Shown: positions 17,400-48,309 of the stretch, one piece after another | Numbering within the stretch: position 1 is the first letter of the stretch | Layout: each line of letters opens with the position of its first letter | Assembly (NCBI RefSeq): GCF_964213995.1 | Contig: NW_027590427.1 | Span: forward strand, 186,001-250,000 | From: Mustelus asterias | Lineage: Eukaryota | Length of the DNA: 64,000 bases | Reading direction: 5' to 3' | Notes under the pieces: generated by a model | Databases searched by the model: none | What the model was told of the DNA's origin: nothing | The model's input: only the letters and a program-made list of their open reading frames with translations | Position numbers and translations under genes: made by a program

Positions 17400-18530
17400 A
17401 GAGAAGAAGGCCATTTTGAAGCATCATGTATGTGCTGGTCCTCTTAAGGAGCAATTCATCCAATAAGACTCTATACCCGACAGTCCAGCATTTTGTTCAA
17501 TTCCAGACAATAATCCAATCCCATTTTGAAACCATCAATTGGCGCTCCCTGAACCGTACTCTGAAACAGCAGATTGCAGGTCTGAATCAGTCACTGTCCG
17601 AAAATGTTTTTCGTTATGACTCCATGCTTCTTTCACCAATTAACTTCAACCCACGCCCTCTGTTACAAAATCCATCTGCTATTGAACAATTACTGTCTAT
17701 CTACTCTGTCAAGACCCCTCAGGATTTTGAACGCCTCATTGGGATCACATCAGCAACTTCCTGTCAAGGAAATCAGTCCGAACCTCGCCAATATATTTTC
17801 GGAATTGAAGTTTCTGATCTCTGGAACTAATCTCGTATTTTCCCCCTGCATCCAGCCTATTGGCTTTACATTTCTCCTTACGTTTGGTGCCCAGAATTTG
17901 ACGCAATTTTTCAGTTGACTATTTTCCAGTGAATTTTACAAATTTAGCATAACTTCCTTGCTTCTGTATTCTTTTCCCCAACAAAGACTGTTAACTATTT
18001 TCTTTTCCGCTCTTTCAAACTATCTTCCACCATGAATGATCTATGCACATATTCACTCAGGTCCCTCGGCGTCTTACCGCCACATTCATAGCGTTTTCAT
18101 CATTTCCCTTTGTCTCTTCACATTCTGCTTAACAAAACTAATCATGTAACTTTACATGCAATCAATTAAATCTCCCAATTGCACGACAATTCCACAAATT
18201 AGTTTTTTTTTCGTTCTGAAGTTCTGCTCGGTCTTCTGATGGTTGGCAATGTTTCCATGTTTTGCATCATACACAGATTTTGAAAGTCTGACCTCCATAC
18301 CAAGCTCTCGGCCATTACTATGCCGGGAAGATCAAGAGTCATATAACCTACTCCTGGCACCTTCACAACAAACTTTATTCCAGTCCGAAAAACAGCTCTG
18401 AGTTTTTTTCCTGGCACTCTGCCAATTTCCTATCCGTGTTGCTCCTATCCATTTTATTCTCTGATCTCCACATTTACTCACAAGCTGTGATGCAGCACCA
18501 TATCACATGACCTTTGGACGCCCATTAAGA
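17400..18530 (-). mobile_element. Old, highly diverged CR1 relic
   Basis: Residual similarity to the RT and 3' region of the younger copies, e.g. GGTGCCCAGAATTTGACGCA at ~17886. Confidence 0.5.
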
Positions 18531-19919
18531 GAAATACCCTCACAAACCATCTCTGTTGTTCAGCATTAAACTCAAGCAAGTTGACGAAAAACGATTTGAT
18601 CTGAACAAATACATTCTGGCTGAATTTGTCAAAAAGCATTAAAGTGGGATGATTTCTGCAGTGATGAAGGCAGTGAAGATATGGATGTTATATCTGCTGG
18701 CGACACAAGGATAGATCGTAAAATTGGGCATTGGCGAGGGCATTGGATATATATCAAATATTGTGCACACTACTTGTCTCCTTATCTTAAGAAATATGTT
18801 AATGCATGAGAAAAAGTTCAGAGGAGTTTTACGAAACCATCACCAGCTCTGAGCGGGTGATCTGATGAGGAAAGGATGTTGACGTCAGGTTTGTATCCAC
18901 GGGAGTTCAGAAGAGTAAGAGGCAAATTGACTGAAAGCTTTAAAACGCGAAGGGGTGCCAACAGTGTGGATGTTGAGCGGATGATTCCTCTTGTCCAATG
19001 TTGTAGCTGTACTGGATATGTCTCTGAGTGTACATTTGTGGGCTCTTGGTATTCCGTCTGTTTCCAATGCTGTTGTACTGTCCACGGAGGGCGCTCTCTG
19101 ATCGCTTACCGAAAATCATGGCATCTTTTTGCAGAAAGTGAATATTTGCCGATATGCAAATGGGCGGAGAAAATAAATCCCATCCCATCACATTGTATCT
19201 TCCCGGTTCTTTTGATTCAACCTTTAACTTCAATACATTTATTTAACACAAATGTCCTCATTCTGAATTGAATATCTCTGAAATAGACAACATTGAATTG
19301 CAAGCATGGCTAATCAACAAAAGAGCGCGAGTCACTGGGAAATACACATCCCATGGTACTTTTTGAAATTGACCACAGTCAGCTTTCAAACAAAAGCAAA
19401 TATCTTTCAAGGGAAGAGATTTAAGAATGATCTGTTAGTTATACGTGATCCTTCTTTATTCGGTGTGTGAAACATTCTGGCACTTAAATCTCTTTCATCG
19501 ACAGGAGGCCCAGCAGTTCCGCACTGATCCTCGATTTCCTCATCTGTCTGAGTGGTTTTTCCTATTTCTTTATTCGGAAGAACAATTTTAAAAACAAGCT
19601 TCGAAGCAATGTGTGTCATTTCCTCTAGCTCAGTTACAGTTTTACTTGTGTCTGTCTTTATGAGCCCGCATTACTGGTCGACATGTTTCAGATGGTGATT
19701 AAATATGTTTGTCTGCACCGGTAAACGCATTAAATTTTGTTGCGGACTGAACGAGTTGCGAATATATGTACAAACAATACAAACATTTATTTCCTGCCAT
19801 TGCATCCTAAATAACAGCATTTCTGATTTTCCGAAAGGCAATTGAATTAATGTAAGGTCCGATTTTCCGAAAAGCATTTGAGTTGATGTAACATCGAGAT
19901 TCACATAATGGTGAGCAAT

Positions 19920-20232
19920 GATGGTGGCACAGTGGGACGGCACAGTGGCACATTGGTTAGCACTGCGGCCTCACAGACACCTGGGTTCGACTCAAGGCTT
20001 GGGTCACTGTCTGTGTTGAGTTTGCACGTTCTACCCGTGTTCCCCGGGTCCTGGTTTCCTCCCACAGTCCAAAGATGTGCAGGCGAGGTGGATAGGCCAT
20101 GCTAAATTTCCCCTTAGTGCCAGGGGGCGAGGTAGGTAAACACATGGGGTCATGGGGATAGGGCCTGGGTGGGATTGTGTTCGATGCAGTCTCGATGGGC
20201 CGAATGGCCTCCCTCTTCACTGCATGATTCTA
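19920..20232 (+). mobile_element. HE1-type SINE inside array unit 1
   Basis: Conserved core CCTCCCACAGTCCAAAGATGTGC and CR1-like 3' end GGGCCGAATGGCCTCC. Confidence 0.85.
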
Positions 20233-20284
20233 GGAAGGTAAACCATGCAGGCTTCGCACTCCCTTAATAAGGAAGGTCCGAAAG

Positions 20285-20357
20285 TGCTTCTGCCGGGTTT
20301 TGATCCGGGGATCTTTCACGTGTGAGGCGAACGTGATAACCATGACATTACATGAAC
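20285..20357 (-). pseudogene. tRNA-Val(CAC) pseudogene
   Basis: 73 nt, GTTCATGTAATGTCATGGTTATCACGTTCGCCTCACACGTGAAAG...; broken acceptor stem and T-loop. Confidence 0.85.
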
Positions 20358-21440
20358 AGCTGACAGCATATTTTAGCTAATCGGCCTGTCTGCAATGTCC
20401 AACTGCGCTGCGTTGCTCCAGGTTCCAATGGATAGACTGAGAGCCCATGCCACTGAATTCAAGAAGAAAACCGGTACTTTTAACCTGATTTCAGAATTTA
20501 TCTTGAACATCAAAATTTAAAAGCTTTCGTTTGGCAAATATCTAAGTGAGCATTGATTTCTGCCCATTCATTAATGCATCATTTTCATCTTCCTTCGAAT
20601 GATCTCAACAAATTGTAATCAGTAATAAAAGTAAATTACTGCGGATGCTGGAATCGGAAACCAAAAGAGAAAATGCTCGAAAATCTCGCAATGTCTGACA
20701 GCTCCTGTTAGGAGAGAAAAGGGCTGACCTTTCGAGTCCAGATGACATTTTGTGAAAGCTCATTGAGCAATTGTACTCAGTATTTGTTTTATTATTCAAT
20801 ATTTAGTATCAATACATTATTTAACACATATGTCTTCATTATGAATTGAATATCTCTGGAATTGAATATCACTGAATTGCAAACATAACTGACCAACAGA
20901 ACGAATCGAATCACCGGGTAATACAGATCGCAATTTTGAGATTGATCATAACCAGCTTTTAAACAAAGTCAACTACGTTTTAAATGGAAGTGATTCAAGA
21001 ATTAACTGTTCGTGACAATTGAGCCTTTTTTTATTATGGGCGTGAAATATTCAGGCGCATAAATTCCGGCCATTTATAGGAAGGTCCAGAAGATCTGCAC
21101 TGAGTCCCGATTCTCTCATCTGTTTGAGTGTTTTTTTTTTCTATTTCTTTGTTGTGAAGAACGATTTTTTAAAAGAATCGTCTGGGAAATGAACGCCATT
21201 TCTGATAGATCACTTACAATATAACTTGTGTCAGTCTTCTGGAGCAGACGCTACTATTAGAAACGTTTCATTCTTGTCAGTGCATCAAAAAAAAGTCAGC
21301 ATTTCTTATTTTACAGAAAACATTGGAGGCCGATGTCAGAGCAACAATAATATGCCTGTAATATTGAGGTTCAGATAATGTTGAGAAACGAACTGAAATC
21401 ATGCAATTTTCCTTCACGCGACATGAGAAAGCTTAATGAA

Positions 21441-21513
21441 TGTTTCTGCTCCGTTTCGAACCAGGACCTTTCCGCGTGTCAGACGAACATAATAACCACT
21501 ACACTGGAGAAAC
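21441..21513 (-). pseudogene. tRNA-Val pseudogene (anticodon reads GAC)
   Basis: GTTTCTCCAGTGTAGTGGTTATTATGTTCGTCTGACACGCGGAAAGGTCCTGGTTCGAAAC...; stem mismatches. Confidence 0.8.
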
Positions 21514-21734
21514 AGCTGGACGCAAACTGCAGCAAATCGGACTGTCCGCAATGTTCAACAGCTGCAGGTTCCAATGGTCAGACTGAGAGCCCATGCTTCT
21601 TAATTCAGGAAGATAACCGTTGCTTTCAATCTGATTGCTCAACTTATTTTGAACATCAAAATTTAAAAGCGTTCTTCTGGCAAATATCTAAGGGAACAAT
21701 GATTTCTAGCCTTTCATTAATGCATCATTCTATA

Positions 21735-22463
21735 GCTATACGATAAATGGCAGAACCATAAAGGGTGTAGATACGCAGAGGGACCTGGGTGTGCAAGTCC
21801 ACAGATCCTTGAAGGTGACGTCACAGGTGGAGAAGGTAGTGAATAAGGCATATGGCATGCTTGCCTTTATAGGGCGGGGCATAGAGTATAAGGTTGGAGT
21901 CTGATGTTGCAGATGTACAGAACGTTGGTTCGGCCGCATTTGGAATACTGCGTCCAGTTCTGGTCGCCACACTACCAGAAGGACGTGGAGGCTTTGGAGA
22001 GAGTGCAGAGGAGGTTGACCTGGATGTTGTCTGGTATGGAGGGGCTTAGTTATGAGGAGAGATTGGGTAAACTGGGGTTGTTCTCACTGGAAAAACGGAG
22101 GATGAGGGGAGACTTAATAGAGATGTATAAAGTTATGAAAGGCATAGATAGGATGAACGGTGGGAAGCTTTTCCCCAGGTCGGTGGTGACGTTCACGAGG
22201 GGTCATGGGTTCAAGGTGAACGGGGGGAGGTTTAACACAGATATCAGAAGGACATATTTTACACAGAGGGTGGTGGGGGCCTGGAATGCGCTGCCAGGCA
22301 AGGTGGTGGAGGCGGACACACTGGGAACGTTTAAGACTTATCTAGATAGCCACATGAACGGAGTGGGAATGGAGGGATACAAAAGAATGGTCTAGTTTGG
22401 ACCAGGGAGCAGCACGGGCTTGGGCTAGTTCCTGTGCTGTATTGTTCTTTGTTCTTTGTTCTT
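21735..22463 (+). mobile_element. 5'-truncated CR1 inserted in array unit 2, TSD ATTCT
   Basis: ORF 21904..22395 is the CR1 C-terminus; (TTCTTTG)n tail; the empty site is visible in sister units (TGCATCATTTTCATCTTCC). Confidence 0.92.
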
Positions 22464-23362
22464 TATTCTCATCTTCCTTCGAATAATCTCAACCAATTGT
22501 TCTCAGCAATAAAAGCAAATTACTGCGGATACTGGAATCGGAAACCAAACGAAAAAATGCTGGAAAATCTCACAACGTCTGACAGCACCTGTAAGAAGAG
22601 AAAGGAGCTGACGTTTCGAGTCCAGATGACACTTCAACAACGTTCATTGTACAATTGTACTCAGTATTTGTTTCAATATTTAGTCTCAATGCATTATTTA
22701 ACACAGATGTCTTCATTATGAATTGAATATCTCTGAAATTGAATATCATAGAATTGTAAATATAACTGACCAACAGGAATCGAGTCACCGGGGAATACAG
22801 ATCACAATTATGAGATTGACCATAGCGAACTACATTTAAGCAAAGTGAACTACATTTAAATAGACGAGATTGAAGAATTATTGACACTTGAGTCTTTTCT
22901 TTTTTGAGTGTGAAACATTCAGGCGCATAAATTCCGGCCATTTAAATGAAAGTTCAGTAGATCCGCACTGAGTCTCGATTTCCTCATTTGTCTGAGTGTT
23001 TTTTTTCCCATTTCTTTGTTTTGAAGAACGATTTAAAAAAAGATTCTTCTGGGAAATGTGCGCCATTTCCTACACTTCGCTTACCGTATCACTCGTGTCA
23101 GTCCCCTGGAGCACATACTACTATTCGAAAAGTTCCAGATGGTGATTAGCTACGTTAATCTGCACCTATAAACTCTTTAAATTCTGTTGTAGACTGAACG
23201 TGATGCGAATATGCGCACAGTGTCAAAATCGAAAGGTTTCTTTCCTGTCAGTTCGTCAAAAAGCTATCAACATTCTTATTTTACAGAAATCATTTGAGGC
23301 CGAGGTCAGAGCAAAGATCATATGGCTGCAACATCAAGATGCGGATAATGTTCAGCAACGAA

Positions 23363-23946
23363 GATCTAATACAAATAGGAAATATACAGTAAATGGCAGA
23401 ACCCTTAAGAATATTGATAGGCAAAGGGATCTGGGTGTACAGGTATACAGGTCACTGAAAGTGGCAATGCAGGTGGAGAAGGTAGTCAAGAAGGCATACC
23501 CATGCTTGCCTTCATCGGCCGGGGCATTGAGTTTAAAAATTGGCAAGTCATGTTGCAACTTTATAGAACCTTAGTTAGGCCGCACTTGGAATATAATATT
23601 TAAATTTGGTCGCCACACTACCAGAAGGATGTGGAGGCTTTGGAGAGGGTAAAGAAAAGATTTACCAGGATGTTGCCCTCTTTTTAGGTCAAACCAAACC
23701 AAGTCAACAAACTCAGATTAAATCAGGACAAAGTAAAAGGGGCAGCTCCCCAAAAAGGAGGGGAACAGCCCGAACAGAAATCAAAGTACAAAGGAAACTT
23801 AAAAACATCAAATTAAAATGTGATTATTGGGGTCAATAATGCACCCCAACCACTGCGGTGCCCAGCGGGCACGGAAAGCGTCAACCTAGCATGGTCGGTG
23901 CATGCGTGGAGGGCTGGTTGCTATGCTGTAATTTTCTTTGTTCTTT
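23363..23946 (+). mobile_element. 5'-truncated CR1 in array unit 3, with an internal part replaced by an antisense Tx1-like fragment
   Basis: CR1 sequence runs to ...GGATGTTGCC (23677), foreign sequence occupies 23678-23887, and the CR1 3' UTR resumes at AGCATGGTCGGTGC (23888). Confidence 0.85.
23678..23887 (-). mobile_element. 3' end of a Tx1-type (L1 clade) non-LTR retrotransposon
   Basis: Minus strand reads VDAFRARWAPQWLGCIIDPNNHILI*, then a T-rich 3' UTR ending AAAAAGAG; resembles Tx1 ORF2 C-termini (F...RWA...C). Confidence 0.6.
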
Positions 23947-23996
23947 ATATTGAAATCATACAGATTTCCTCACCCTAAATTAGAAAGCTTAATGAA

Positions 23997-24069
23997 CGTT
24001 TCTGCCCGGTTTTGAACTGGGAACCTTTCGCGTGTGAGGTGAATGTGATAACCACTACACTACAGAAAC
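23997..24069 (-). pseudogene. tRNA-Val(CAC), best-preserved array copy, probably a pseudogene
   Basis: GTTTCTGTAGTGTAGTGGTTATCACATTCACCTCACACGCGAAAGGTTCCCAGTTCAAAACCGGGCAGAAACG; mismatches in the anticodon and T stems. Confidence 0.85.
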
Positions 24070-25251
24070 AGGTGACAGCAATGATAGCAAATCCGCCTCT
24101 CTGCAATGTTCAACTGTGCTGTGTTGCTGCAGTTTCAAATGGTTCGACTGAGAGCCCATGTCCCTTGTTTCAGGAAGATAACCGTTACTGTCAATATGAT
24201 TGTTCAACTTATCTTGAACTTCAAAATTTTAAAGCGATCGCCTGTCAAATATCTAAGGCAACAATGAATTCCACTCATTCATTAATGCATTATTTTCATC
24301 TTCCTTCGAATAATCTCAACCAATTGTGCTCATTAATGAAAGCAAATTACTGCAGATGATGGAATCTGAAACCAAAGGAGAAAATGCTGGAAAATCTCAC
24401 AAGGTCTGGCAGCATCTGTAAGGAGAGAAAAGAGCTGACGTTTCGAGTCCAGATGACATTTTGTCAAAGCTCATTTTACAATTGTACTCAGTATTTGTTT
24501 CAATATTTAATATCAATACATTGTTTAACACATATGACTTCATTATGAATTGAATATCTCGGAAATTGAATATCACTGAATTGCAAACATAACTGGCCAA
24601 CGAAAAGAGTCGAGTCACCGGGTAATACAGATCCCATGGTTGTTTGTTTGAGATTGGCCATCATCAGCTTTTAAACAAAGTCAACTATAATTAAATGGAA
24701 GAGATTGAAGAATTATCGGTGAGGTATACTTGAGCCTTTTTTATTATAAGTGTGAAACATTCAGGCGTATAAATTCCGGCCACCTATAGGAAAGTCTAGT
24801 TGATCCGCACTGAGTCTCCATTTCTTCATCTGTCTGTGTGTTTTTTCCGATTTCCATGTTATGAAGAACAATTTTTAAAAAAAGATTCTTCTGGGAAATG
24901 TGTGCCATTTCCTCTAGTTCACTTCGAGTATCACTTGTGTCTGTCTTGTTGAGCACACACTCCTATTAGACATGTTTCAGATGGTGATTCGCTATTTTAG
25001 TTTGCACCTATGAACCCATTAAATTCTGTTGTCCACTGAACAAGATGATACTATGTGCACGTTCTCAAAATAGAGACGTTTCTTTCCTGTCAGTGCGTCG
25101 AAAAAATCAGCATTTCTTATTCGCAGAAACCATTTGAGTTTGAGGTCAGAGCAAAGATAATATTGTTGTAATGTCGAGATTCGGATAATGTTCAGCAACG
25201 AACTGAAATCATACAGGATTTCCCTCATCTTCCATGAGAAAGCTTAACGAA

Positions 25252-25324
25252 TGCTGCTTCCCTGTTTCGGACCAGGAACTTTTTGTGTTTTAGGCGAACG
25301 GGATAACCACTCCACTGCAGAAAC
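25252..25324 (-). pseudogene. tRNA-Val pseudogene
   Basis: GTTTCTGCAGTGGAGTGGTTATCCCGTTCGCCTAAAACAC...; degenerate 3' half. Confidence 0.8.
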
Positions 25325-36242: not shown

Positions 36243-37722
36243 ATGTTGGGTATCATTTTGTATTCGTTTCTCACTGTTTCAGCTCTTTTGCCTGGTAAGT
36301 CTACAAGGGACATAAACTTCTTCTTGCAAGCGATGTCGACAGTAATTTAGGTCCGCTTTGCTGTAGATGATAATGTGATCCGTGTTCTGATGTTATGAGT
36401 TACAATAGAATGATAATAACACCTTAACTTTCAATATTTCTAAATTTCTGCCGGTGTCACTACTGGAGACTCAATATCAAAGGAGCCGGTTACAGCGATG
36501 AAGTTTGAATGGGACTCAAAGAACAAAGAACAAAGAAAGTTACAGGCTCTTAGGCCCTCCAAGCCTGCACCGATCATGTTGCCCGACTGAACTAAAACCC
36601 GCTATCCTTCCGGGGACCATATCCCTCTATTCCCACCTTACTCATATATTTGTCCGGACGCACCTTAAATGTCACTATCGTATCTGTTTCCACTACCTCC
36701 CCCGGCAGCGTGTTCCAGGCACCCATCACACTCGGTGTAAAACACTTACCTCATTAATCTCCTTTAAACCTTGCCCCTCGCACCTTAAACCTATGCCCCT
36801 TAGTAATTGACTCTTCCACCCTGGGAAAAACCTTCTGACTATCCACTCTAGCCATGCCCCTCAGAATCTTGTAGACTTGTATCAGGTCGTCCCTCAACCT
36901 CCGTCGTTCAAGTGACAACAAACCAAGTTTCTCCAACCTCTCTTCTTAGCTAATGGGCGGCATGGTAGCACAGTGGTTAGCAGTGCTTCTTCACAGCTCC
37001 AGGGACCTGGGTTTGATTCCCGGCTTTGGTCACGGTCTGTGGCGTAAGCACATTCTCCTCGTGTCAGCGTGGGTTTCCTCCAGGTGCTCGGATTTCCTCC
37101 CACAGTCCAAAAATGTGCGGGTTAGGTTTATTAGTCATGCTAAAATTGCCCCTTAGAGTTCTGAGATGCGTAGGTTTGAGGGATTAACGTGTACATGTGG
37201 GGGTAGGGTCTGGGTGGGATTGTGGTCAGTGCAGACTCGATGGGCCGAATGGCCTCCTTCTGTACTGCAGGGTTTCTATGATTCTGATGCTCTCCATGCC
37301 AGGCAACATCCTGGTAAATCTTTTCTGCACCCTCTCCAAAGCCTCAACATCGTTCTGGTAGTGTGGCGACCAAAATTGAAAATTATATTCCAAGTACGGC
37401 CTAACTAACGTGCTATAAAGCTGCAATATGACTCGCCATTTTTTAAACTCAATGCCCCGGTGACCAATAAGTTAACTGCATAGCAGCTGGTGCATATTAC
37501 ATTCAATTGTATCGCCAGGACCGGGAGAAGGTTCCCAGCAAAAAGAACGGAGAAAGCCCCCATCTTCTTGATCTATATCTCTTATTATGGAGATATTTCC
37601 AGTGCAAAGGGCGTGGGAACACTATTTTCTGCATATATCGAGAGGTCGAAAAGCGAGGGGAACTTCAGCATGTGTGAGCTGTGGCTGTCGGACAGCGCGG
37701 TGTATTACTGTGGACTGAGAGA
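36243..37722 (+). pseudogene. TCR alpha/delta-type V pseudogene (V2), split by a CR1 plus SINE insertion
   Basis: Leader 36243-36294 MLGIILYSFLTVSALLP|GTAAGT; acceptor AG is CG at 36452-3; V part 1 36454-36518 GVTTGDSISKEPVTAMKFEWDS; part 2 37460-37722 IQLYRQD/IFLIYISYYG...LSDSAVYYCGLR. Confidence 0.9.
36519..37459 (-). mobile_element. 5'-truncated CR1 inside the V2 exon, carrying a nested plus-strand HE1 SINE (~36956-37286)
   Basis: (AAGAACA)n tail at 36519; ORFs 36754..36936 and 37226..37426 are the two halves of the CR1 C-terminus. Confidence 0.92.
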
Positions 37723-37761
37723 CGCAATGACAGAAACCAGAGGGAGCCTGGTATGAAAAAA
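37723..37761 (+). promoter_or_regulatory. Degenerate 23-bp-spacer RSS
   Basis: CGCAATG + 23 nt + ATGAAAAAA after YYCGLR; the critical CAC is altered. Confidence 0.75.
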
Positions 37762-37884
37762 AAAACATTGCCCCAGAGTGACAAGATGAACGGACCAGAG
37801 AATGGTAATAATATTGGGCTATAAATAGAGCATGATTCACTCTGTGGTGCCTCTATACATTTTCGGTATTGCTGATACTCACAA

Positions 37885-38190
37885 CAGGAGAGGCGATGGC
37901 CGAGGGGGTATTATCCTGAGACTATTAATCCAGAAACTCAGTGAATGTTGCGCGGACCCGATTCAATGAAAACAATATCGACAACTAAGAATCTACTGAC
38001 GACCATGAAGCCATTGTCGATTGTCGGAAAAACCCACTTTGTTCACTCATGTACTTTGGGGAATGAAATCTGCCGTCCTTACCTGGTCTGGCCTACACGT
38101 GACTCCAAAGCCAAAACAATGTGGTTGATCTCAACTACCGATGGACAACTAGTGGTATCCATGTCCCACACACAGAAAAAATTCACTGGA
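37885..38190 (+). mobile_element. SINE of a third family
   Basis: GGAGAGGCGATGGCC...ATTATC...ACTATTAATCCAGA head; body related to minus-strand copies at ~5270-5570 and 45535-45790. Confidence 0.6.
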
Positions 38191-38554
38191 ATCACTGTTA
38201 AAACTGTCCTGATAATAAGGCTAATGGACGTATTGAGAAAAAAAAAACCAGGACAGAACTATTTAGCCTCCATTAGCTTCCGGGTCACAGTAAGAAAATA
38301 AGGGTTTTTTGTGGAATGTCAATTATTGAGCATGTTCAAAAAAATCAACAGCTTTTGGAAGCCGAATGGCATTAAGCGCTATGCAGATAGCGCGGGAAAG
38401 TGGCGTTCAGGCTGGTCAGCCCTGATCTAACTGAATGACGAAGCAGAATCGAAGGACAGAATGGCCTACTGCTGTTCCCATGTTCCTGTACCCCATTTTT
38501 CTACATTCTTCCCCAAGTCAATCGCTAAATGTGTAAGTTCTCTCTGTAATAGTT

Positions 38555-40308
38555 ATAGATGGCAGAGGGAAGTTATGTGTGGAACCGGAGGAGATTGGTG
38601 AAGCATTGAACCAATATTTCTCTTCGGTGTTCACGCAAGGGGACATGAATATAGCTGAGGAGGACACTGGGTTGCAAGGGAGTAGAATAGACAGTATTAC
38701 AGTTGATAAGGAGGATGTGCAGGATATTCTGGAGGGTCTGAAAATAGATAAATCCCCTGGTCCGGATGGGATTTATCCAAGGATTCTCTGGGAGGCAAGA
38801 GAAGTGATTGCAGAGCCTCTGGCTCTGATCTTCAGGTCGTCGTTGGCCTCTGGTATAGTACCAGAAGATTGGAGGTTAGCGAATGTTGTCCCATTGTTTA
38901 AGAAGGGGAACAGAGACTTCCCCGGGAATTATAGACCGGTGAGTCTCACTTCTGTTGTCGGCAAGATGTTGGAAAAAATTATAAGGGATAGGATTTATAG
39001 TTATTTGGAGAGTAATGAATTGATAGGTGATAGTCAGCATGGTTTTGTGGCAGGTAGGTCGTGCCTTACTAACCTTATTGAGTTTTTTGAGAAAGTGACC
39101 AAGGAGGTGGATGGGGGCAAGGCAGTGGACGTGGTATATATGGATTTTAGTAAGGCGTTTGATAAGGTTCACCATGGTAGGCTTCTGCAGAAAATGCAGA
39201 TGTATGGGATTGGGGGTGATCTAGGAAATTGGATCAGGAATTGGCTAGCGGATAGGAAACAGAGGGTGGTGGTTGATAGTAAATATTCATCATGGAGTGC
39301 GGTTACAAGTGGTGTACCTCAGGGATCTGTTTTGGGGCCACTGCTGTTTGTAATATTTATTAATGATCTGGATGAGGGTATAGTTGGGTGGATTAGCAAA
39401 TTTGCTGATGACACCAAAGTCGGTGGTGTGGTAGACAGTGAGGAAGGGTGTCGTAGTTTGCAGGAAGACTTAGACAGGTTGCAAAGTTGGGCCGAGAGGT
39501 GGCGGATGGAGTTTAATGCGGAGAAGTGTGAGGTAATTCACTTTGGTAGGAATAACAGATGTGTTGAGTATAGGGCTAACGGGAGGACTTTGAATAGTGT
39601 GGAGGAGCAGAGGGATCTAGGTGTATGTGTGCATAGATCCCTGAAAGTTGGGAATCAAGTAGATAAGGTTGTTAAGAAGGCATATGGTGTCTTGGCGTTT
39701 ATTGGTAGGGGGATTGAATTTAGGAGTCGTAGCGTTATGTTGCAACTGTACACAACTCTGGTGCGGCCGCACTTGGAGTACTGTGTGCAGTTCTGGTCCC
39801 CACATTACAGGAAGGATGTGGAGGCTTTGGAGAGGGTGCAGAGGAGGTTTACCAGGATGTTGCCTGGTATGGAGGGGAGATCCTATGAGGAGAGGCTGAG
39901 GGATTTGGGATTGTTTTCGCTGGAAAGGCGGCGGCTAAGAGGGGATCTTATTGAAACATATAAGATGATTAGAGGTTTAGATAGGGTGGATAGTGATAGC
40001 CTTTTTCCTCTGATGGAGAAATCCAGCACGAGGGGGCATGGCTTTAAATTGAGGGGGGGTAGTTATAGAACCGATGTCAGGGGTAGGTTCTTTACCCAGA
40101 GGGTGGTGAGGGATTGGAATGCCCTGCTAGCATCAGTAGTAAATGCGCCTAGTTTGGGGGCGTTTAAGAGATCCGTAGATAGGTTCATGGACGAAAAGAA
40201 ATTGGTTTAGGTTGGAGGGTCACAGTTTTTTTTTTTAACTGGTCGGTGCAACATCGTGGGCCGAAGGGCCTGTTCTGCGCTGTAATGTTCTATGTTCTAT
40301 GTTCTATG
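38555..40308 (+). mobile_element. Young 5'-truncated CR1/HER1 LINE with an uninterrupted 543-aa RT-containing ORF
   Basis: KSPGPDGI, NYRPVSLTS, QHGF, DFSKAFD, GVPQGSVLGP and FADD motifs; (TTCTATG)3 tail; no endonuclease domain. Confidence 0.96.
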
Positions 40309-40939
40309 TAAGGATGATTATGTTAATCCAGCTCACGGTGCGTCTGGTTACTGTCTGTTATCTCACCACCTGGGTGTCACACAGCACCACTGGAGACAGA
40401 AGGGAGGGAGCTGAGAACATACGAAAAAGGAAGCTGATTATTGAAGGCTGGGATTAGACCGGATAAAATCAAACACGCAGCTCCCCTTTTACAGAGCGAC
40501 AGCGGCAATGCAGCTGCTGTGGGGATCATTCCTGACAGGTAATTACGTGCAAAAAACATTGCACTGTTTCACACGTTTCCCAAGCTTGGTTCCAGACCAC
40601 AAATTAATCATACGCCCTTCTGACCATTTTCTGTGTTGTTATTTCCATATTTGAGACATGGAGATTCTGTCACCCAGCCGCTCACATCAGATGTTAAGAG
40701 AGAAGGCGAGATCGTGTTTTTAACGTGTAGCAATGAAACCAAGCACGCTGAATGTCTTCTTCACCACTCTGTCCACCTGTGACTCCACTTTCAAGGAGCA
40801 GAGAGCGACTATAGGCTGTACTGGTACCGACAACATCCAGACACACAGCCCGTGTTTATAGTGCGGAAAGATACTGATAGTTATGAAAATAAAGCATATG
40901 TTTTTAAAAGTCGCTTCTATGTAGCTAATGTCGCTCTGT

Positions 40940-41765
40940 AGGAGGTAGCTAAAAATGGATACAAAATTGGCTTGATGACAGAAGCCACAGGGCGGTTGTA
41001 GAGGGTTGTTTTTTAAACTGGAGGCCTGTGACCAGCGTTGTGCCTCAGGGATCAGTGCTGGGTCCACTGTTATTTGTCATTTATATTAATTATTTAGGTG
41101 AGAAAAAAGGAGGCATGTTTAGGAAGTTTGCAGATGACACGAAGATTGGTGGCACAGTGGACAGTGAAGAAGGTTATCTCGGATTGCAACGGGATCTTGA
41201 TAAATTGGGCCAGTGGGCTCACGAATGGCAGATGGAGTTTACTTTAGATAAATGCGAGGTTATGCATTTTGGGAGATTGAACCAGGGCAGGACTTACTCA
41301 GTTAATGGTAGGTCATTGAGAAGAGTTACAGAGCAAAGGGATCTAGAGGTACAGGTTCATAGCTCCTTGAAAGTGGAGCCACAGGTGGACAGCGTGGTGA
41401 AGAAGACATTCAGCGTGCGTGGTTTCATTGCTCAGAACATTGAATACAGGGGTTGGAACGTCTTGTTGAAGTTGTACAAGACATTGGTAAGGCTACACTT
41501 GGAATACTGTGTACAGTTCTGTTCACCCTATTATAGAAATATATTATTAAACTAGAAAGAGTGCAGGAAAGATTTACTAGGATGCTACCGAGACTTGATG
41601 GTTTGAGCTATAAGGAGAGGCTGGATAGACTGGGACATTTTTCTCTGGAACGTAGAAGGCTGAGGGGTGATCTTATAGAGGTCTATAAAATAATGAGGGG
41701 CATGGTTCATCGAGATAGTCAATATTTTTTCCCAAAGGTAGGGGAGTCTAAAACTAGAGGGCACA
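40940..41765 (+). mobile_element. CR1 fragment truncated at both ends
   Basis: ORFs 41028..41555 and 41561..41785 carry RT motifs, with a frameshift between them. Confidence 0.9.
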
Positions 41766-42329
41766 GGGATTCAAGGAATATATGAAGTCAACAATATAAA
41801 GTACAATCTGATATGGGAAAGGTTTATCCTGAAACATCTACTCGATTGAACTGCGATTGTAGAGCATCAGGCCACTGGTTCATTTAAATAAGTTTAAATT
41901 TGGGGCACAGGTCAGGGCACAGTTGGTTATGCAGAGAGTGGTCATCATTTACAATGCAATTTGATCAATGTAACAGAGTCCAAAACAAACATAGTGGTCT
42001 CCTAACAAGTAAGGCAAATTATAAGGATGTTTGCAGATTTCTGAATTGGTGACTTATGATGAGAATAATGAAAGTACCCATTCCCCAGTGCCATGCGACT
42101 TCTTGATTGATTAGCTGCAGTGGTCATGAATACGTGATGCTCTGTTGGTGCTGAGTGGTAAATGGCTTTCTTTCTGGAGATTCAATGTATTCATTATATG
42201 TTCAAAATATGTTTCTGCCAAATCTTTCCTGATTTGTATTATTGTTACTGTGATGCAACCTGTAGATTTTAGGACTCCTGTGAAATTGAATGCGAGTTGT
42301 TTTCTACATAGATAGCTTTGAAATTTGCT

Positions 42330-42550
42330 GTTGAGTGCAATGACCTCGGCCTCAAATGCTTTCCCCAAAATCAGAAATGCTGAATTTTATGACGCAATGT
42401 CAGGAAAGAAACGTTCCCACTTTGACACCGTGCACATATTAGCATCTGCTGCAGTTTACAACAGAATTTAGTTGGTTTAATAGGTGCAGACTAACATAGT
42501 TAATCACCATCTGAAACATGTCTAATAGTGGTGCGTGCTCAAAAATACAC
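42330..42550 (+). repeat. Inverted copy of the tRNA-Val array flank
   Basis: Reverse complement of ~24950-25150 (CACCATCTGAAACATGTCTAATAG, TGACCTCGGCCTCAAATG). Confidence 0.75.
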
Positions 42551-42627
42551 AATGCCCTGTATGAACGCAAAGAAACATTAAACTAAATAAAAATACTATC
42601 TGTTTCGCGTCGTAAATAAAAGGACTT

Positions 42628-43011
42628 CATTGTGTCCCTATACCATCACCCCCGCCCCCCCCCCCCCCACGCCCCCTCCACTGACTATAACAGTACACAT
42701 AAGGATTAGAATGGCTAGTTTCCAAGGTGCAGGTTAGTGTCACGTTACTTTCCTCCTTAACAGATATTTCAGGACCCAGTTGTTCCACTTTGTCTTGGTG
42801 GCTCCATTCTAACAGAAATAACAACAATAATGAGAATCAGAGTCAGCCTCATGTTGAGCGATACAATTATCATCTCCACCATCACTGTTGCTTTAGCAAC
42901 AATAACATCTGGGTTGCAGCAGTCAGGAGGAGCATGTAGTTTTACTGGGAAGGAAAAAAACTTTCTGAGGACTGAAATAATGATGAGGATCTGAGCGAGA
43001 CAGTTTTCCAT
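42628..43011 (-). pseudogene. TCR alpha/delta-type V pseudogene (V3), internally deleted, opposite orientation
   Basis: Leader MENCLAQILIIISVLR from 43011; V exon from 42808 WSHQDKVEQLGPEISVKEESNVTLTCTLETSHSNPYVY(C)Y(S)Q, then a G-run and heptamer-like CACAATG at 42634-42628. Confidence 0.75.
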
Positions 43012-43318
43012 GATGCTCCTCAGTCTGTAACTCAGCAGTGAGAGGAATCCTCCGTCAGAGACAGAAACACAGATCCCCGTCCCATTGCACTGCTCATCCA
43101 ACCTCAATGAGAGGAATGGCGCAACTTCAGCAATCTGTCCAATCACACAATCGGGTCAGAGTGAGAGCAGCAAACGGAAGCTGTGGGCGGGGTACCGCAG
43201 ATTCAATATTGAGTGAAGCGTGCGGTGACTCTCAGCGGCACTCGGAACTGTTGGGCGGAAATAGAACCAGTTGAAACTACAGAAGTCTCTTATCATCCTG
43301 CGCCTACTCACTTTTCAG

Positions 43319-43933
43319 GGTGTCTAACAATAAATAAAGCGACTGCGACATGAAGCAAGGAGAACCATAGAATCTTTGAAAGGCAAATTGGTCATCCGGC
43401 GTATCTATGTTTCCTTGGAGGAGTTCTCCAAATCATCCAATTCTCCCCGCAGCTCCGTGAAATCTCTGCTTAACTAACTTTGCTCTCAAGAGTACAAGCC
43501 CGGTCTCTATAACCTCACCACAAAACTGAATTTCCTCATCCCTGGAAAGGCGGAGGATTGAGCGGAGATTTTGGAAAATATTGTCAGTTGGCAGATGGGG
43601 AAAATGGAGCAGGAAGCAAACCAGAAAACACTGCCCCAGCTTTGCGAATCTTTAGAAACTGTTTGGGAACTGGAATCAGAGGAGATTGAAGGGTTGACTG
43701 ACTGAGCAGAGACAATCAAGGCAACCTTCCATTCTTTAAGAGGCTGGAACGTTGACTCTGATGTTTTCAGTAAAATTAACTGATCAGAGACATTGAAAGG
43801 ATTCTCGTTACTGCACATCAGCAATTCAAACCGAATATCAATTTCGGAACAGTCAGAATATTTGGTTTCAGACAAGACACCGAAAGGCTTGAATGGAGAC
43901 GGCGCCGGTTGTTGGAGAGCCGGTTCCCGATGA
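43319..43933 (+). pseudogene. Decayed coding segment of unknown family
   Basis: After CTTTTCAG, one frame of ~205 codons reads as helical protein (IKRLRHEARRTIESLKGKL...YKPGLYNLTTKLNFLIPG...KATFHSLRGW) with 6 stops; open antisense ORF 43507..43950. Confidence 0.4.
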
Positions 43934-44275
43934 CATGGATGTGTCTGCAATGGGGGGTCTCTGACTATTGGACTTAACTTGTATCTGCAGCTAACCCATT
44001 AGAAATCCGTTCAATTATTCCATTCTCACCAACCCATAAATTATTCTCTCTTACTCAGTTACACAGTTAATGAGACAGGGAAAAGCTGCAATATTTCAGT
44101 CTCCCCCACTCTCCAAACACCCCCTGCCGGCAAAAAGCACTGGCGATTTAGCTGCATAAGTTTTCTAAGAAATGGTGAAGACCAATGTTTGTCAATATTT
44201 TGATTGATCCCCTTTTCAGTTCACATTTAACCATAAACTGGAATTCGGAAACTTCAGAGCAGTGAGTTTTGATAA

Positions 44276-44547
44276 CGTTTCTGCCCCGTTTATTGCCTGG
44301 GACCTGCGCAAATATGTGCAAAGATGTGCGGGTTAGGTTGATTGGCCAGGTTAAAAATTGTCCCTTAGAGTCCTGGGATGCGTAGGTTAGAGGGGGGATT
44401 AGCGGGTAAAATATGTGGGGGTAGGGCCTGGGTGGGATTGTGGTCGGTGCAGACTCGATGGGCCGAATGGCCTCCTTCTGCACTGTAGGGTTTCTATGTT
44501 TCTATGTTTCTATGAATAGAAAGTGATAACACCTTCAATACAGAAAA
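44276..44547 (-). pseudogene. tRNA-Val pseudogene split at the anticodon arm by a 5'-truncated HE1 SINE (~44317-44514, +)
   Basis: CGTTTCTGCCCCGTTT...GGGACC on the left and GTGATAAC...TACAGAAA on the right of the SINE. Confidence 0.65.
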
Positions 44548-44727
44548 TCCGCTGAGGACAAAAGCGGCTGGTCTAGAAGGTCAAACCGTGCAGTCTGATT
44601 TAACTTCACAACCTGATTTGTGGAAGTACAATTCGGCTCAATACCCTTTCTTGATGCGGCAGAGAAATTCATCTCACATTAGAATCATAAAATGACATTT
44701 GCGCCTTTTTTCTCTTTTGCCATGTCT

Positions 44728-44990
44728 CGGGCGGCACGGTGGTACAGTGGTCAGCACTGCTATCTCACAGCGCTAAAGACCCAGGTTCAATTCCCAGCTT
44801 TAGTTATTGTCTGTGTGGCGCTTGTACGTTCGCCCCGTGTCTGCGTGGGTTTCTTCTCACAGCCTGAAAGACGTGCTGGTTCTGTGCATTGACCCCAACA
44901 GGCGCCGGAGGCTCGCGACTAAGGAATTTCACAGTGTCTTCATTGCAGTGTAAGCCTTACTTGTAGCTAATAAATAAACTTTACTTTAAC
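44728..44990 (+). mobile_element. tRNA-derived SINE (TAATAAA-type tail)
   Basis: Same family as the 1744 copy. Confidence 0.8.
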
Positions 44991-45131
44991 TGAGCATTTT
45001 GCAGAATATTATTTAACACTTGGAAATGCAACTGCAGTTAGGCTGAGAGATAATGTTTTCTGTCAATATTTAATAACAAACGGAAATTAGGTAACTTTTC
45101 CTCACACTGAGAGATGAGGAAATTTGAACAC

Positions 45132-45204
45132 TGTTGTTGTCCTATTTCACACAGGGAACCATTAACGTGTTAGGTGAATTTATTAAACACCACACTTCAG
45201 AAAC
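45132..45204 (-). pseudogene. tRNA-Val(AAC) pseudogene, highly degenerate
   Basis: GTTTCTGAAGTGTGGTG...TTCACCTAACACGTT... Confidence 0.6.
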
Positions 45205-45271
45205 AGAGAATACATGACTCTGAAGTACAGTCAGACAGCGCGGTTCGAATTCCAGTCAGTTGTCGAGCATC

Positions 45272-45344
45272 GTTTTTGTAGTGTAGTGATTATCACATTC
45301 ATCTGAAACATGAAAGGTTCCCAGTTCCAAAACGGGTGGAAACA
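45272..45344 (+). pseudogene. tRNA-Val pseudogene
   Basis: GTTTTTGTAGTGTAGTGATTATCACATTCATCTGAAACATGAAAGGTTCCCAGTTCCAAAACGGGTGGAAACA. Confidence 0.75.
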
Positions 45345-45796
45345 TTTATACTTATTTCTAACCTGAGTGAGAGGAAATTGCTGAATACAGTATCTTACAC
45401 AGAGTTGCATTTTCCCTTCCCCATTTCTGTACACACTCAAACCCGACAGAATATCTCGAACTGGTTACCGTTTCCACCTCTGACAGTTCAGAAAGTTTCT
45501 CTCAAACTTGCACATTCGGGCTTTTTCATTTGTTCATTCCTGAAACATTGCCGTCGCTGGCCATCATTCACTGCCCAACCCGAGTTGAGATGCAACCATA
45601 TTGCTGTGGCTCTGTAGTCACATGCAGGCTAGGCCAGGTCAGAAGGGCAGATTTCCTTCCAAAAATACATTGGTGAATCATATGGGTTCCTTCAACAATC
45701 GAAAATGCTTTCATGGTCATCAATGGTTCTCAATTCCAGATTTTTCGTATTGTATTCAAATCCCACCAGCTGTCCTGGCTGGTCCCCATAATAAAA

Positions 45797-46140
45797 GGGG
45801 CGGCACGGTAGCACAGTGGTTAGCACTGCTGCTTCACAGCTCCAGGGTCCCGGGTTCGATTCCCGGCTCGGGTCACTGTCTGTGTGGAGTTTGCACATTC
45901 TCCTCGTGTCTGCGTGGGTTTCCTCCGGGTGCTCCGGTTTCCTCCCACAGTCCAAAGATGTGCGGGTTAGGTTGATTGGCCAGGTTAAAAAAATTGCCCC
46001 TTAGAGTCCTGGGATGCGTAGGTTAGAGGAATTAGCGGGTAAAATATGTGGGGGTAGGGCCTGGGTGGGATTGTGGTCGGTGCAGACTCGATGGGCCGAA
46101 TGGCCTCCTTCTGCACTGTAGGGTTTCTATGCTTCTATGA
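45797..46140 (+). mobile_element. Full-length young HE1 SINE
   Basis: Intact A and B boxes (GGTAGCACAGTGG, GGTTCGATTCC), conserved core, CR1-derived tail TTCTATG. Confidence 0.92.
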
Positions 46141-46181
46141 TCAGCTGGTCGAGCGATAACTCGCCCGACCTAAAGCATCTG

Positions 46182-46276
46182 CGCGTCAGGTGAGGCTCGA
46201 ATTTAAAACCTGGGCATAGCCCGCAGGACGCACTGCTGTATAAACACCATGCGCTAACCGATTGCGCCACTGGGGC
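46182..46276 (-). pseudogene. Intron-containing tRNA-Ile(TAT) pseudogene
   Basis: GCCCCAGTGGCGCAATCGGTTAGCGC...TTATA-cagcagtgcgtcctgcgggct-ATGCC...TTCGAGCCTCACCTG; 21-nt intron; broken T and acceptor stems. Confidence 0.85.
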
Positions 46277-46363
46277 ACTGCGCCCTACGCATTTGTGTCA
46301 GAATATTAAAGGCTACCACAGCGTCACCTCCATTAATAACAGTCATTTGACGCCACATTTCAG

Positions 46364-46814
46364 AGAGGGGAACAAACCCATCAAAGATTCTCTCTTCCAC
46401 AATGAGTAAGACAGGGACAGGCAGCAGGATCTTACCCCGCACTCTCCAATCGCCCACAGACAGCAGAAAGTGGTAAGTGGCAACTGCAGCTTCAATCAGG
46501 GAGTTACTGCCCATGCCAGGGACACAGAATACTCTAACCCAGGTAAAACGTCACAATATACCGATCAGAGACTCATCAAATCGCAGATAGATTATCGCCC
46601 ACTCACTGAGCATTCGAGTAGCATTTACACAATACCCGAGCGAGTCACAAACAACATTTACAGCAACTTTCCAAAACTTTTCAGTGATAAATTCCTTCAT
46701 TTGGCTGAAAATCTGACTGTTGTGAATCTGAAAATGGGCACCCTGGGATTTGTGTTACCCAGAGACCTGTCTCCCACTGTTCGTCCGTCAGGTTGTGTTT
46801 GTGTTGTACATTGA
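46364..46814 (+). pseudogene. Tyrosine-motif-rich coding segment of an unknown gene
   Basis: ORF 46470..46814 extends upstream through one stop to a TTTCAG acceptor; contains TEYSNP, SQYTDQ, IDYRPL, SIYTIP and NIYSNF. Confidence 0.35.
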
Positions 46815-47220
46815 AGCGCCTGTCATTTCAAAATGAGGAGAGAACAAAGAAAATATTAAATTGTGGAACAAATCCTGAGGGAAACGGATCATAATATTGG
46901 AAGGAGATGCAGTTGTGAATGGTGTTATTGATGATTGTATCGAAAGTATTGGATCCTTGGGCTTCTGGTGGTCAGTTCCCTTCCCTCCCGTTGAATTCCT
47001 CCCTCTGACAAGAGACATGGATTCATTTTAGCTGCACGTTCATAGGAGAAAGGGTATAACCGCTACACCACAGCAATACTACGGATTCGAAATGAACAAA
47101 GAGACTTGTGTAGACTTGTAAATGGTGCGGTGATGCTGTAGTTCTGGAACAGGTTTCGCAGAAATAGAATTGTGATCATTGACACCGTGGATTAGAATAT
47201 CGTTAACAGCTGCTGTATCA

Positions 47221-47294
47221 GTCTCTGTGGTGCAATTGGTCAGCGCGCTCGGCTGTTAACCGAAAGGTTGGTGGGTCCAGACCACCCAGGGACG
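47221..47294 (+). pseudogene. tRNA-Asn(GTT), probably a pseudogene
   Basis: GTCTCTGTGGTGCAATTGGTCAGCGCGCTCGGCTGTTAACCGAAAGGTTGGTGGGTCCAGACCACCCAGGGACG; B box and T-loop mutated. Confidence 0.88.
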
Positions 47295-47493
47295 GAGCTT
47301 GTACTGTTTCCTTCCCATGATCCTTCAAAAGCAAACAGTTGCGGGTTGGCAATGGGTCCGTGGGCGTCAGTAAAAATAGCTCTCAAGTTTTACCGGCTCT
47401 ACTGTCTTCTGGTGTCAGTTTGAGTGTTGACGCTGCCGGAGAAATGGAGAGCTGGATTTCACCCAGAAAAGCAGCAAAGTTTAAAAACAGTGG

Positions 47494-47522
47494 CGCCCAA
47501 CTTGGGGTTGGAACCCATGTCC
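47494..47522 (-). pseudogene. 3' fragment of tRNA-Lys(CTT)
   Basis: Minus strand GGACATGGGTTCCAACCCCAAGTTGGGCG followed by CCACTGTTTTT. Confidence 0.55.
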
Positions 47523-47621
47523 ATTAACAGTGATAAGTTAATGTTGTTCAGCAGAATTACCACAAGACGGTTTATCACAGGTTGATACTAACACTGCAGT
47601 AAAATTAAATGCAGTAGAAAA

Positions 47622-47925
47622 GGACGGCATGATGGCACAGTGGTTAGTAATGATGCGTCACACCGCCATTGGCTCAGGTTAAATTCCTCAGGTCACTGCC
47701 TGTGCGGAGTTTGCACCTTGTCTGCGTGGGTTTCCTCCATGTGCTCCGGTTTCCTTTCCAAACATGTGTGAGTTCGGTTGCTTGGCCATGCTAAATTGAC
47801 CCGCCTGTCAGCGGGATTATCAGGGTAAATATGTGGGTTTCCGGGCATAGGGCGTGGGTGGGATTGTTGTCAGTGCGGACCCGATGGGCCGAACGGTCTC
47901 CTTCTGTACTGTAGGGATTCTACAA
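47622..47925 (+). mobile_element. Older HE1-type SINE
   Basis: Diverged head and core; the empty site is visible in the paralogous block at ~53510-53570. Confidence 0.8.
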
Positions 47926-48191: not shown

Positions 48192-48309
48192 AACTGCCTG
48201 CAATGGTTTTAATCTCGCCTATCTATGGTAACTTGGCGCATTTTTTTCAATTTCAGCGGGGTTTTTTTGTATTCCAGGGACATGTCCGTCTGACAAGAGC
48301 CTCTTGATA

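What the first reader, a model, noticed from the sequence alone, without database searches (positions are those of the whole stretch)
19215..47294. TCR alpha/delta V segments interleaved with a tRNA gene cluster
Seen: the order is tRNA-Val array, V1, tRNA-Pro x2, tRNA-Arg x2, V2, Val-flank, V3, tRNA-Val/Ile/Asn. The intact tRNA-Pro lies ~570 bp past the V1 RSS, and the intact tRNA-Arg ~1.4 kb upstream of the V2 leader. Known: tRNA genes bound by TFIIIC can act as chromatin barriers and open-chromatin sites. As I recall, human 14q11.2 has a tRNA cluster (Pro, Leu, Thr, Tyr) about a megabase from TRA/TRD, and Pro, Leu and Thr-TGT also occur here. Inference: this may be an ancient tRNA-TCR linkage, in which Pol III genes insulate or open V segments and repeated tRNA units drive V birth-and-death by unequal crossover. 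V(D)J rearrangement would also delete or invert tRNA genes in T cells.
Basis: partly seen in the sequence, partly recalled or inferred. Interest (0 to 1): 0.7.

Follow-up and report, generated by a model that had tools for sequence, protein, structure and literature searches.

The report
Dead TCR-V/tRNA island riding IgM duplications
In this shark genome, four broken T-cell-receptor gene pieces mixed with mostly decayed tRNA genes form an island that recurs dozens of times, often back-to-back with antibody (IgM) genes, so it was likely copied along as a passenger when those antibody genes multiplied, rather than acting as an insulator for working receptor genes.

Summary
The order and distances are right, but there are four V segments and all are broken. 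Only tRNA-Pro(AGG, 18-nt intron) has intact promoter and terminator. A V1 marker occurs 55 times in the assembly and an IgM Cmu4 marker 80 times. 30 of 55 V1 copies have Cmu4 55-88 kb upstream on the opposite strand, and one unit is colinear with the window's scaffold over about 92 kb. Eight copies lie on C71, which also carries the real TRA J cluster. All examined copies share one frameshift, so V1 died before it was amplified. Only 4 of 46 intact V segments have a tRNA-like sequence within 2 kb, which argues against an insulator role. tRNA-Pro exons are under purifying selection. V1 and Cmu trees are not congruent, so units were reshuffled. TCR V exons between IgH clusters are published (PMC12227049); the tRNA content and fixed geometry were not found in nine searches. 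The scan earlier noted intron-bearing tRNA-Pro in other shark-type genomes and this receptor complex elsewhere in this genome. Synteny with human 14q11.2 is unresolved.

The parts
19215..27000 (-). Array of five decayed tRNA-Val units (bodies 20285-20357, 21441-21513, 23997-24069, 25252-25324, 26853-26925); none has a canonical B box
29330..29845 (+). V1: TCR alpha/delta V pseudogene; leader 29330-29375, V exon 29503-29806 (7-nt deletion, stops), 23-bp-spacer RSS 29807-29845; about 77-80% identical to intact relatives on C1506/C420; marker found 55 times in the assembly
30416..30505 (+). tRNA-Pro(AGG) with an 18-nt intron (30452-30469) one base after the anticodon; intact B box and T5 terminator; exons under purifying selection across copies
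32513..32593 (+). Decayed tRNA-Pro(TGG)-like relic
   Evidence: sequence read directly; missed by Rfam, ARAGORN and the BLAST scan
33347..33419 (-). Decayed tRNA, Arg(CCT)-like (isotype recalled), 44.7 bits
34739..34811 (+). tRNA-Arg(ACG), near-intact body (59.8 bits), no T4 terminator within 40 nt; not conserved across copies
36243..37760 (+). V2: TCR alpha/delta V pseudogene; leader 36243-36294, exon split by LINE/SINE insertion (~36520-37460), decayed RSS
38552..40207 (+). LINE fragment with a 552-aa open reverse-transcriptase frame; absent from the homologous C118 unit
40645..40917 (+). V3: TCR alpha/delta V pseudogene, 5' half, cut by a LINE at ~40920; 3' half survives in the C118 unit
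42341..42549 (+). Flank of a tRNA-Val unit; the same flank occurs three times (80-84%) in the intact V array of C232
42678..43339 (-). V4: truncated TCR alpha/delta V relic (leader and FR1), 79% identical to intact V loci on C1506 and C232
45151..47294 (.). Decayed tRNA-Val (45151-45205 -, 45272-45343 +), intron-bearing Ile(TAT)-like relic (46181-46275 -, isotype recalled) and tRNA-Asn(GTT) with broken B box (47221-47294 +, 50.4 bits)
47295..60570 (.).
1..19214 (.). Gene-poor spacer of the module. It continues outside the window to an intact-looking IgM minilocus (VH-D-D-JH-Cmu1-4, - strand, G000:C395:132.5-148.8 kb), 37-54 kb before window base 1

Best explanation
The stretch is a decayed piece of a shark TCR alpha/delta V array mixed with tRNA genes that lies head-to-head upstream of an IgM minilocus and was likely amplified as a passenger of a roughly 90-110-kb IgM module. 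Shown: the Vs are broken; V1 recurs 55 times; 30 of these have an IgM Cmu4 exon 55-88 kb upstream on the opposite strand; the unit is colinear end to end in the one case read through; the inactivating deletion is shared by all copies examined. Inferred: an ancestral IgM cluster bordered a V-array segment that already held tRNA genes. V1 died there, then segmental duplication, often inverted (giving IgM-island-IgM palindromes), spread the module along the antigen-receptor chromosome. Recombination or conversion between units later shuffled their parts. Most tRNA copies decay with the Vs. tRNA-Pro(AGG) is kept intact, most simply because it makes tRNA.
For: Geometry: 30 of 31 V1-Cmu4 pairs within 100 kb are upstream/opposite (binomial p 2e-17; pairs are related, so not independent), and 7 of 8 C71 copies are paired (permutation p 1e-5). 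Colinearity: C118:488-576 kb matches C395:220-127 kb, mostly at 92-97% identity, from tRNA relics and V1 to beyond Cmu4. IgM identity: VH-D-D-JH with RSS and four C exons, Cmu4 best matching IgM mu chains. Death before amplification: all 30 distinct V1 rows carry the short form at the deletion, none of the 20 more diverged copies translated has an intact V, and the 12 closest copies align to V1 without gaps. V1 and Cmu regions are similarly diverged among units (mean 5.7% and 4.2%). tRNA-Pro travels with V1 in 29 of 32 loci. Val-unit flanks and Pro 5' flanks are shared with intact V arrays. tRNA-Pro: 11 changes on 72 exon sites against 127 on 351 flank sites (p 0.0017) and 23 on 18 intron sites.
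Against: V1 and Cmu trees are not congruent across 19 units (Mantel r -0.03, p 0.56), so simple block duplication without reshuffling is rejected. 25 of 55 V1 copies have no Cmu4 marker within 100 kb; for at least 11 of them the scaffold extends over 100 kb upstream, and 50 of 80 Cmu4 markers have no V1 (exact markers miss diverged copies). The second copy on C395 has a 69-bp satellite, not IgM, upstream, so the island also duplicates alone. Some copies may be haplotigs: 30 distinct V1 rows collapse to 18 groups at 1% and 11 at 2%. Only one further scaffold (C118, two units) was read through. Expression and splicing were not observed.
Confidence: 0.72

Rival explanations
1. The retained tRNA-Pro gene (TFIIIC/Pol III-bound) works as a chromatin boundary between neighbouring IgM miniloci and helps each rearrange on its own; the island is kept for that reason.
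For: Exons are conserved against flanks, the gene is present in 29 of 32 V1 loci, and it sits at a fixed position between head-to-head IgM pairs. Shark miniloci rearrange independently and lie at least 120 kb apart (PMC2435157 passages). TFIIIC barrier activity is in the literature (search listing only).
Against: The whole exon is conserved, not only the A/B boxes, as expected for selection on the tRNA product. 50 of 80 Cmu4 markers lack the V1 island. The gene is 65-70 kb from VH. The family has 649 candidates genome-wide, including a copy on C24. No chromatin data.
Confidence: 0.1
2. One reading: Pol III genes insulate or open functional TCR V segments, and tRNA repeats drive V turnover by unequal crossover.
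For: tRNA hits occur among intact Vs (4 in 150 kb); two intact Vs on C420 lie 149 and 277 bp from Gln-like tRNA bodies. V4 is truncated 130 bp from a Val-unit flank, and the second C395 copy begins inside a Val unit.
Against: 42 of 46 intact Vs have no tRNA-like sequence within 2 kb (library limited to isotypes seen here, and locus edges limit the view). The C420 neighbours score only 44-48 bits. Intact relatives of V1 have no tRNA-Pro downstream. Val-array expansion does not multiply Vs.
Confidence: 0.08
3. The island amplifies on its own as a tRNA-cluster macro-repeat within a repeat-rich chromosome; IgM is an incidental neighbour and part of the count is assembly redundancy.
For: 25 of 55 copies are unpaired, the trees are incongruent, a 31.4-kb copy at 99.8% identity lies on the same scaffold next to a satellite, and tandem tRNA arrays exist elsewhere, e.g. 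C16.
Against: Fixed orientation and a narrow distance range to Cmu4 in 30 cases, continuous homology across the spacer, and 8 diverged copies on the single scaffold C71.
Confidence: 0.1

Closest known systems
Elasmobranch antigen-receptor complex (AgRC), Flajnik et al. 2025, PMC12227049 (read: parts 1-2 of 8 of the main text, term search of the whole main text, all of Table S1; supplementary PDF not read)
   Same: IgM clusters and TCR alpha/delta on one chromosome. The paper states that some TCR alpha/delta-type V exons lie between IgH clusters. Table S1 lists IgM(minus)...TCR V...IgM(plus) runs in the great white shark.
   Different: The word tRNA occurs 0 times in the main text. In the parts read there is no account of one dead V being amplified dozens of times in fixed geometry with IgM.
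Shark IgM miniloci (VH-D1-D2-JH-Cmu), Malecek et al. 2008, PMC2435157 (passages)
   Same: Same minilocus anatomy, 15-200 loci, spaced at least 120 kb.
   Different: The passages seen say the linkage relations were unknown; tRNA has 0 occurrences. Here the spacer content and the extent of the duplicated unit are defined.
Human tRNA-gene VNTR at 1q23.3, Darrow and Chadwick 2014, PMC4041453 (abstract)
   Same: tRNA genes carried in a copy-number-variable repeat, with a proposed boundary role.
   Different: A 7.3-kb homogeneous tandem unit with a CTCF site; here ~90-110-kb mosaic, often inverted units with mostly decayed tRNAs and antigen-receptor genes.
Human chr14 tRNA cluster at 20.61-20.68 Mb plus Arg-ACG at 22.93 Mb (PMC10791582, supplementary rows)
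   Same: Pro-AGG, Pro-TGG, Thr-TGT, Leu and Arg-ACG near TRA/TRD (TRA position of about 21.6-22.6 Mb is recalled).
   Different: The human genes flank the locus and are Pol III-bound. No Tyr was seen in the shark island, which has many further isotypes.

Membership tests
TCR alpha/delta V segment | Split leader, V-set exon, 23-bp-spacer RSS | tested here: met
   V1 leader, intron, exon and RSS; intact relative is V-set
TCR alpha/delta V segment | Closest to TCR alpha/delta V among single domains | tested here: met
   V3's top eight PDB hits are TCR alpha. For V1's intact relative the best single-stretch hits are TCR alpha; multi-domain antibody constructs rank higher on summed score. No tree against named shark TCR Vs was built.
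Functional TRAV/TRDV gene | Open frame with Cys, Trp, Cys and usable RSS | tested here: not met
   All four window Vs are broken. 10 of 20 diverged V1 copies have a reopened frame but lack the WYRQ motif.
Elasmobranch AgRC | IgM miniloci and TRA J/C on one chromosome | tested here: met
   C71 holds 13 Cmu4 markers, 8 V1 copies, 34 J segments and a C1 exon. The window's own scaffold C395 is unplaced, so its membership is inferred from homology.
Elasmobranch AgRC | PSMB5, UrIg2, IgW and IgNAR in the linkage group | not tested
   Not searched
Orphon V (outside the receptor locus) | On a chromosome without J/C of its class | tested here: not met
   Copies on C71 lie 5-13 Mb from the J cluster
Intron-containing eukaryotic tRNA gene | Intron one base 3' of the anticodon, conserved exons, free intron, purine at the third-last intron base | tested here: met
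   ARAGORN intron calls; parsimony counts and G/A at intron -3 in 27 of 27 rows
Intron-containing eukaryotic tRNA gene | Transcript is made and spliced | not tested
   No reads were examined
tDNA insulator | TFIIIC/Pol III occupancy with barrier or enhancer-blocking activity | not testable with these tools
   Needs ChIP, Hi-C or reporter assays
tDNA insulator | Intact tRNA genes beside the genes said to be protected | tested here: not met
   4 of 46 intact Vs with a tRNA-like sequence within 2 kb, 2 of 46 by ARAGORN
Orthologue of the human 14q11.2 tRNA cluster | Shared isotypes beyond chance and conserved flanking genes | tested here: inconclusive
   Post-hoc overlap p 0.15 at amino-acid level and 0.008-0.06 at anticodon level depending on which relics are counted. 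Ser- and Cys-like relics near the J cluster widen the shark set. No intermediate species available.

The most novel reading that the evidence does not exclude
The duplicating unit of the shark IgM family is a ~100-kb module that includes a selected, intron-bearing tRNA-Pro gene acting as a Pol III boundary between autonomously rearranging miniloci, and these tRNA genes descend from a cluster that has stayed beside TCR alpha/delta since the gnathostome ancestor and survives at human 14q11.2.
Probability: 0.1. Interest if true: 0.8.

Novelty: new variant of a known kind. Interest (0 to 1): 0.45.

Why it matters
How shark IgM miniloci multiplied and what lies between them has been unclear. Here one dead TCR V and a tRNA-Pro gene act as tags showing a ~90-kb module, inverted pairing and later reshuffling. 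This explains why TCR V exons turn up between IgH clusters in shark assemblies and warns that automated V counts there include dozens of copies of a single pseudogene. It also names a specific candidate element (the conserved tRNA-Pro gene) for testing boundary models of IgH exclusion in sharks, and gives a concrete test for ancient tRNA-TCR linkage. The parts themselves are ordinary.

Tried and rejected
Protein homologue searches with V1-derived queries found nothing. The TCR-alpha constant family PF09291 found nothing in the genome; the J cluster was located by an RSS pattern and the C exon by repeat-masked ORF listing. The representative-protein search never ran, and no sequencing reads were seen, so expression, splicing and true copy number are open. 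One review sought by DOI was not held. Co-phylogeny of V1 and Cmu, expected under block duplication, was not found. ARAGORN at lowered thresholds gave noise (126-186 calls). ARAGORN's 'tRNA-Stop' at 10994, its Lys/Ala labels for the Pro gene, and its call inside the J cluster (L062) were rejected as SINE-derived or misplaced-intron calls. Selection on tRNA-Arg(ACG) was not seen (gene 0.123 against flanks 0.142 and 0.181, 11 rows). The orphon reading was rejected. Look-alike windows in other genomes: none indexed. The Rfam genome search scored only 63 of 897,371 candidates, so it shows that tRNA arrays exist elsewhere but not a genome-wide density.
Full report
Observation. Rfam finds 5 tRNA hits in the 64-kb window and none in 150 kb taken from 15 arbitrary places on other scaffolds. 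A BLAST scan with tRNAs from these loci lists 21 tRNA-like sites in the window; several of these are relics I seeded by eye, so they are self-matches. Of 14 loci tested, 3 keep a canonical B box and only tRNA-Pro at 30416 also has a T4 terminator within 40 nt. There are four V relics. V1 has a 7-nt deletion and stops relative to an intact relative. V2 is split by a retroelement. V3 is cut by a LINE. V4 (- strand) is truncated. V3's best PDB matches are TCR alpha chains.

Genomic context. The window is G000:C395:186001-250000. A DNA search with V1 returned 40 scored copies at 92-100% identity out of 244 candidates. Upstream on C395, on the opposite strand, lies an intact-looking IgM minilocus with VH, two D, JH and four C exons; Cmu4 matches IgM mu chains best. 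Exact markers gave 55 V1 sites and 80 Cmu4-tail sites. Using all of both lists, 30 of 55 V1 copies have Cmu4 55-88 kb upstream on the opposite strand, and 30 of the 31 pairs within 100 kb have this geometry; on C71, 7 of 8 are paired (permutation p 1e-5). 25 V1 copies and 50 Cmu4 markers are unpaired; some of these lie on short scaffolds, but at least 11 unpaired V1 copies have over 100 kb upstream. Reading 200 kb of C118 showed IgM(-), island, island, IgM(+). One half is colinear with C395 over about 92 kb, mostly at 92-97% identity; the other half matches in pieces.

History. All 30 distinct V1 rows from 32 loci carry the short form at the deletion, so V1 died before it spread. In 10 of 20 diverged copies a second deletion reopens the frame but removes the WYRQ motif. 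Among 19 of the 30 paired units, V1 and Cmu regions are similarly diverged (mean 5.7% and 4.2%), but their distances are uncorrelated (Mantel r -0.03, p 0.56). This goes against duplication as frozen blocks and implies recombination or conversion between units (inference). Copy number may be inflated by haplotigs: the 30 rows form 18 groups at 1% and 11 at 2%, and the second C395 copy is 99.8% identical over 31.4 kb.

The true TCR locus. An RSS pattern led to C71:18.37-18.42 Mb, with 34 J-like segments on one strand and a C1-set exon 5 kb after the last J. I take this as TRA from its anatomy; the PDB search on the exon gave only generic Ig C matches. So the V relics are not orphons. Intact V arrays lie on several unplaced scaffolds. 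Rfam finds 4 tRNA hits in 150 kb of them, 1 in the 30 kb around two intact Vs on C71 and none in a further 80 kb. It finds none in 150 kb over the J region, 2 in 100 kb sampled upstream of it and 11 in 150 kb of the C118 spacer. Of 46 intact Vs in 260 kb, 4 have a tRNA-like sequence within 2 kb. Val-unit flanks and the tRNA-Pro 5' flank are shared between the island and intact arrays, so the mixing of tRNA genes and Vs predates the module (inference). The V1-Pro junction itself is absent beside intact V1 relatives.

tRNA-Pro. The gene has an 18-nt intron at the canonical position and is present in 29 of 32 V1 loci. On a tree of 27 distinct rows there are 11 changes on 72 exon sites, 127 on 351 flank sites (p 0.0017) and 23 on 18 intron sites; the third-last intron base is always G or A. 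This indicates a selected gene that is likely spliced; gene conversion from other Pro genes could contribute, and splicing was not observed. The family is large (649 candidates) and occurs off the complex on C24. Earlier notes of this scan report the same intron-bearing family in other shark-type genomes. tRNA-Arg(ACG) shows no such conservation.

Mechanism. Best reading (0.72): a V-array fragment containing tRNA genes bordered an ancestral IgM cluster, V1 died, and segmental, often inverted duplication spread a ~90-110-kb module along the receptor chromosome, with later reshuffling and decay of most passengers. Geometry, homology, shared lesion and selection on tRNA-Pro are shown; the order of events is inferred.

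Literature. Flajnik et al. 2025 (PMC12227049; parts 1-2 of 8, term search, Table S1; supplementary PDF not read) report IgH-TCR alpha/delta linkage and TCR V exons between IgH clusters, with no use of the word tRNA in the main text. Malecek et al. 2008 (PMC2435157; passages) describe the miniloci and their spacing. Venkatesh et al. 2014 (PMC3964593; passages) note Ig-TCR linkage in a chimaera. PMC4090602 (passages) gave nothing on vertebrate tRNA-Pro introns. PMC10791582 (passages and supplementary rows) confirms the human chr14 tRNA cluster and an Arg-ACG gene at 22.93 Mb. PMC4041453 (abstract) describes a human tRNA VNTR. Nine searches showed no paper on tRNA genes in the shark receptor complex or on this module; most subscription journals are not covered. 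The isotype overlap with human chr14 is a post-hoc test with p between 0.008 and 0.15 depending on counting, and relic isotypes for Arg-CCT, Ile, Leu, Ser and Cys rest on recalled tRNA bodies.

Verdict. A real feature and a new variant of a known arrangement. The insulator model for functional Vs is not supported. The useful result is the IgM-linked module marked by a dead V and a selected tRNA-Pro gene. Interest 0.45.

Noticed in passing
window 30416-30505; G000:C24:20987163-20987251 (L196): Intron-bearing tRNA-Pro(AGG) family, 649 candidates in the genome; the C24 copy has a 16-nt intron. Pro is outside the four intron-bearing isotypes recalled for mammals.
   Followed up: yes
L035:6789-7094 (-) and nine similar loci: A sub-clade of V1 copies has a second deletion that reopens the frame over the whole exon while replacing the WYRQ region with a frameshifted peptide; leader and RSS remain.
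   Followed up: partly
G000:C395:295365-318259 (L017-L019): 23-kb array of a 69-bp satellite (about 331 copies) directly upstream of the 99.8% identical second copy of the island.
   Followed up: no
G000:C395:86000-123000 (L029-L032): Cluster of 84-bp-period repeats, read as C2H2 zinc-finger arrays (recalled pattern), just downstream of the IgM constant region.
   Followed up: no
G000:C395:~158800 (-) (L025): Broken lone IgH V-like segment about 10 kb upstream of the intact-looking VH, inside the module.
   Followed up: no
G000:C71:15164857 and 12 other places: An intact TCR V with a 161-aa open frame has equal scores at 13 places on different scaffolds, suggesting a second amplified module that carries a live V; a Val-like tRNA lies 6.8 kb from the C71 copy.
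   Followed up: partly
G000:C420:60000-110000 (L084-L088): An IgM Cmu4 exon lies only 12 kb from a dense array of intact TCR V genes; two Gln-like tRNA bodies sit between two convergent intact Vs.
   Followed up: partly
window 38552-40207; C395:92780-94528; C118:526878-528631: A LINE fragment with an open 552-aa RT frame is 99.7% identical at several places, indicating recent activity; it is absent from the homologous site of the C118 unit.
   Followed up: partly
G000:C16:97.2-98.7 Mb (L093-L122): Long tandem array of a ~1.78-kb unit with tRNA-Lys(TTT) and tRNA-Thr, including Thr bodies with shifted anticodons.
   Followed up: no
G000:C546:140421: Exact second copy of the first perfect J-type RSS of the C71 J cluster; possibly a haplotig of the TRA region.
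   Followed up: no
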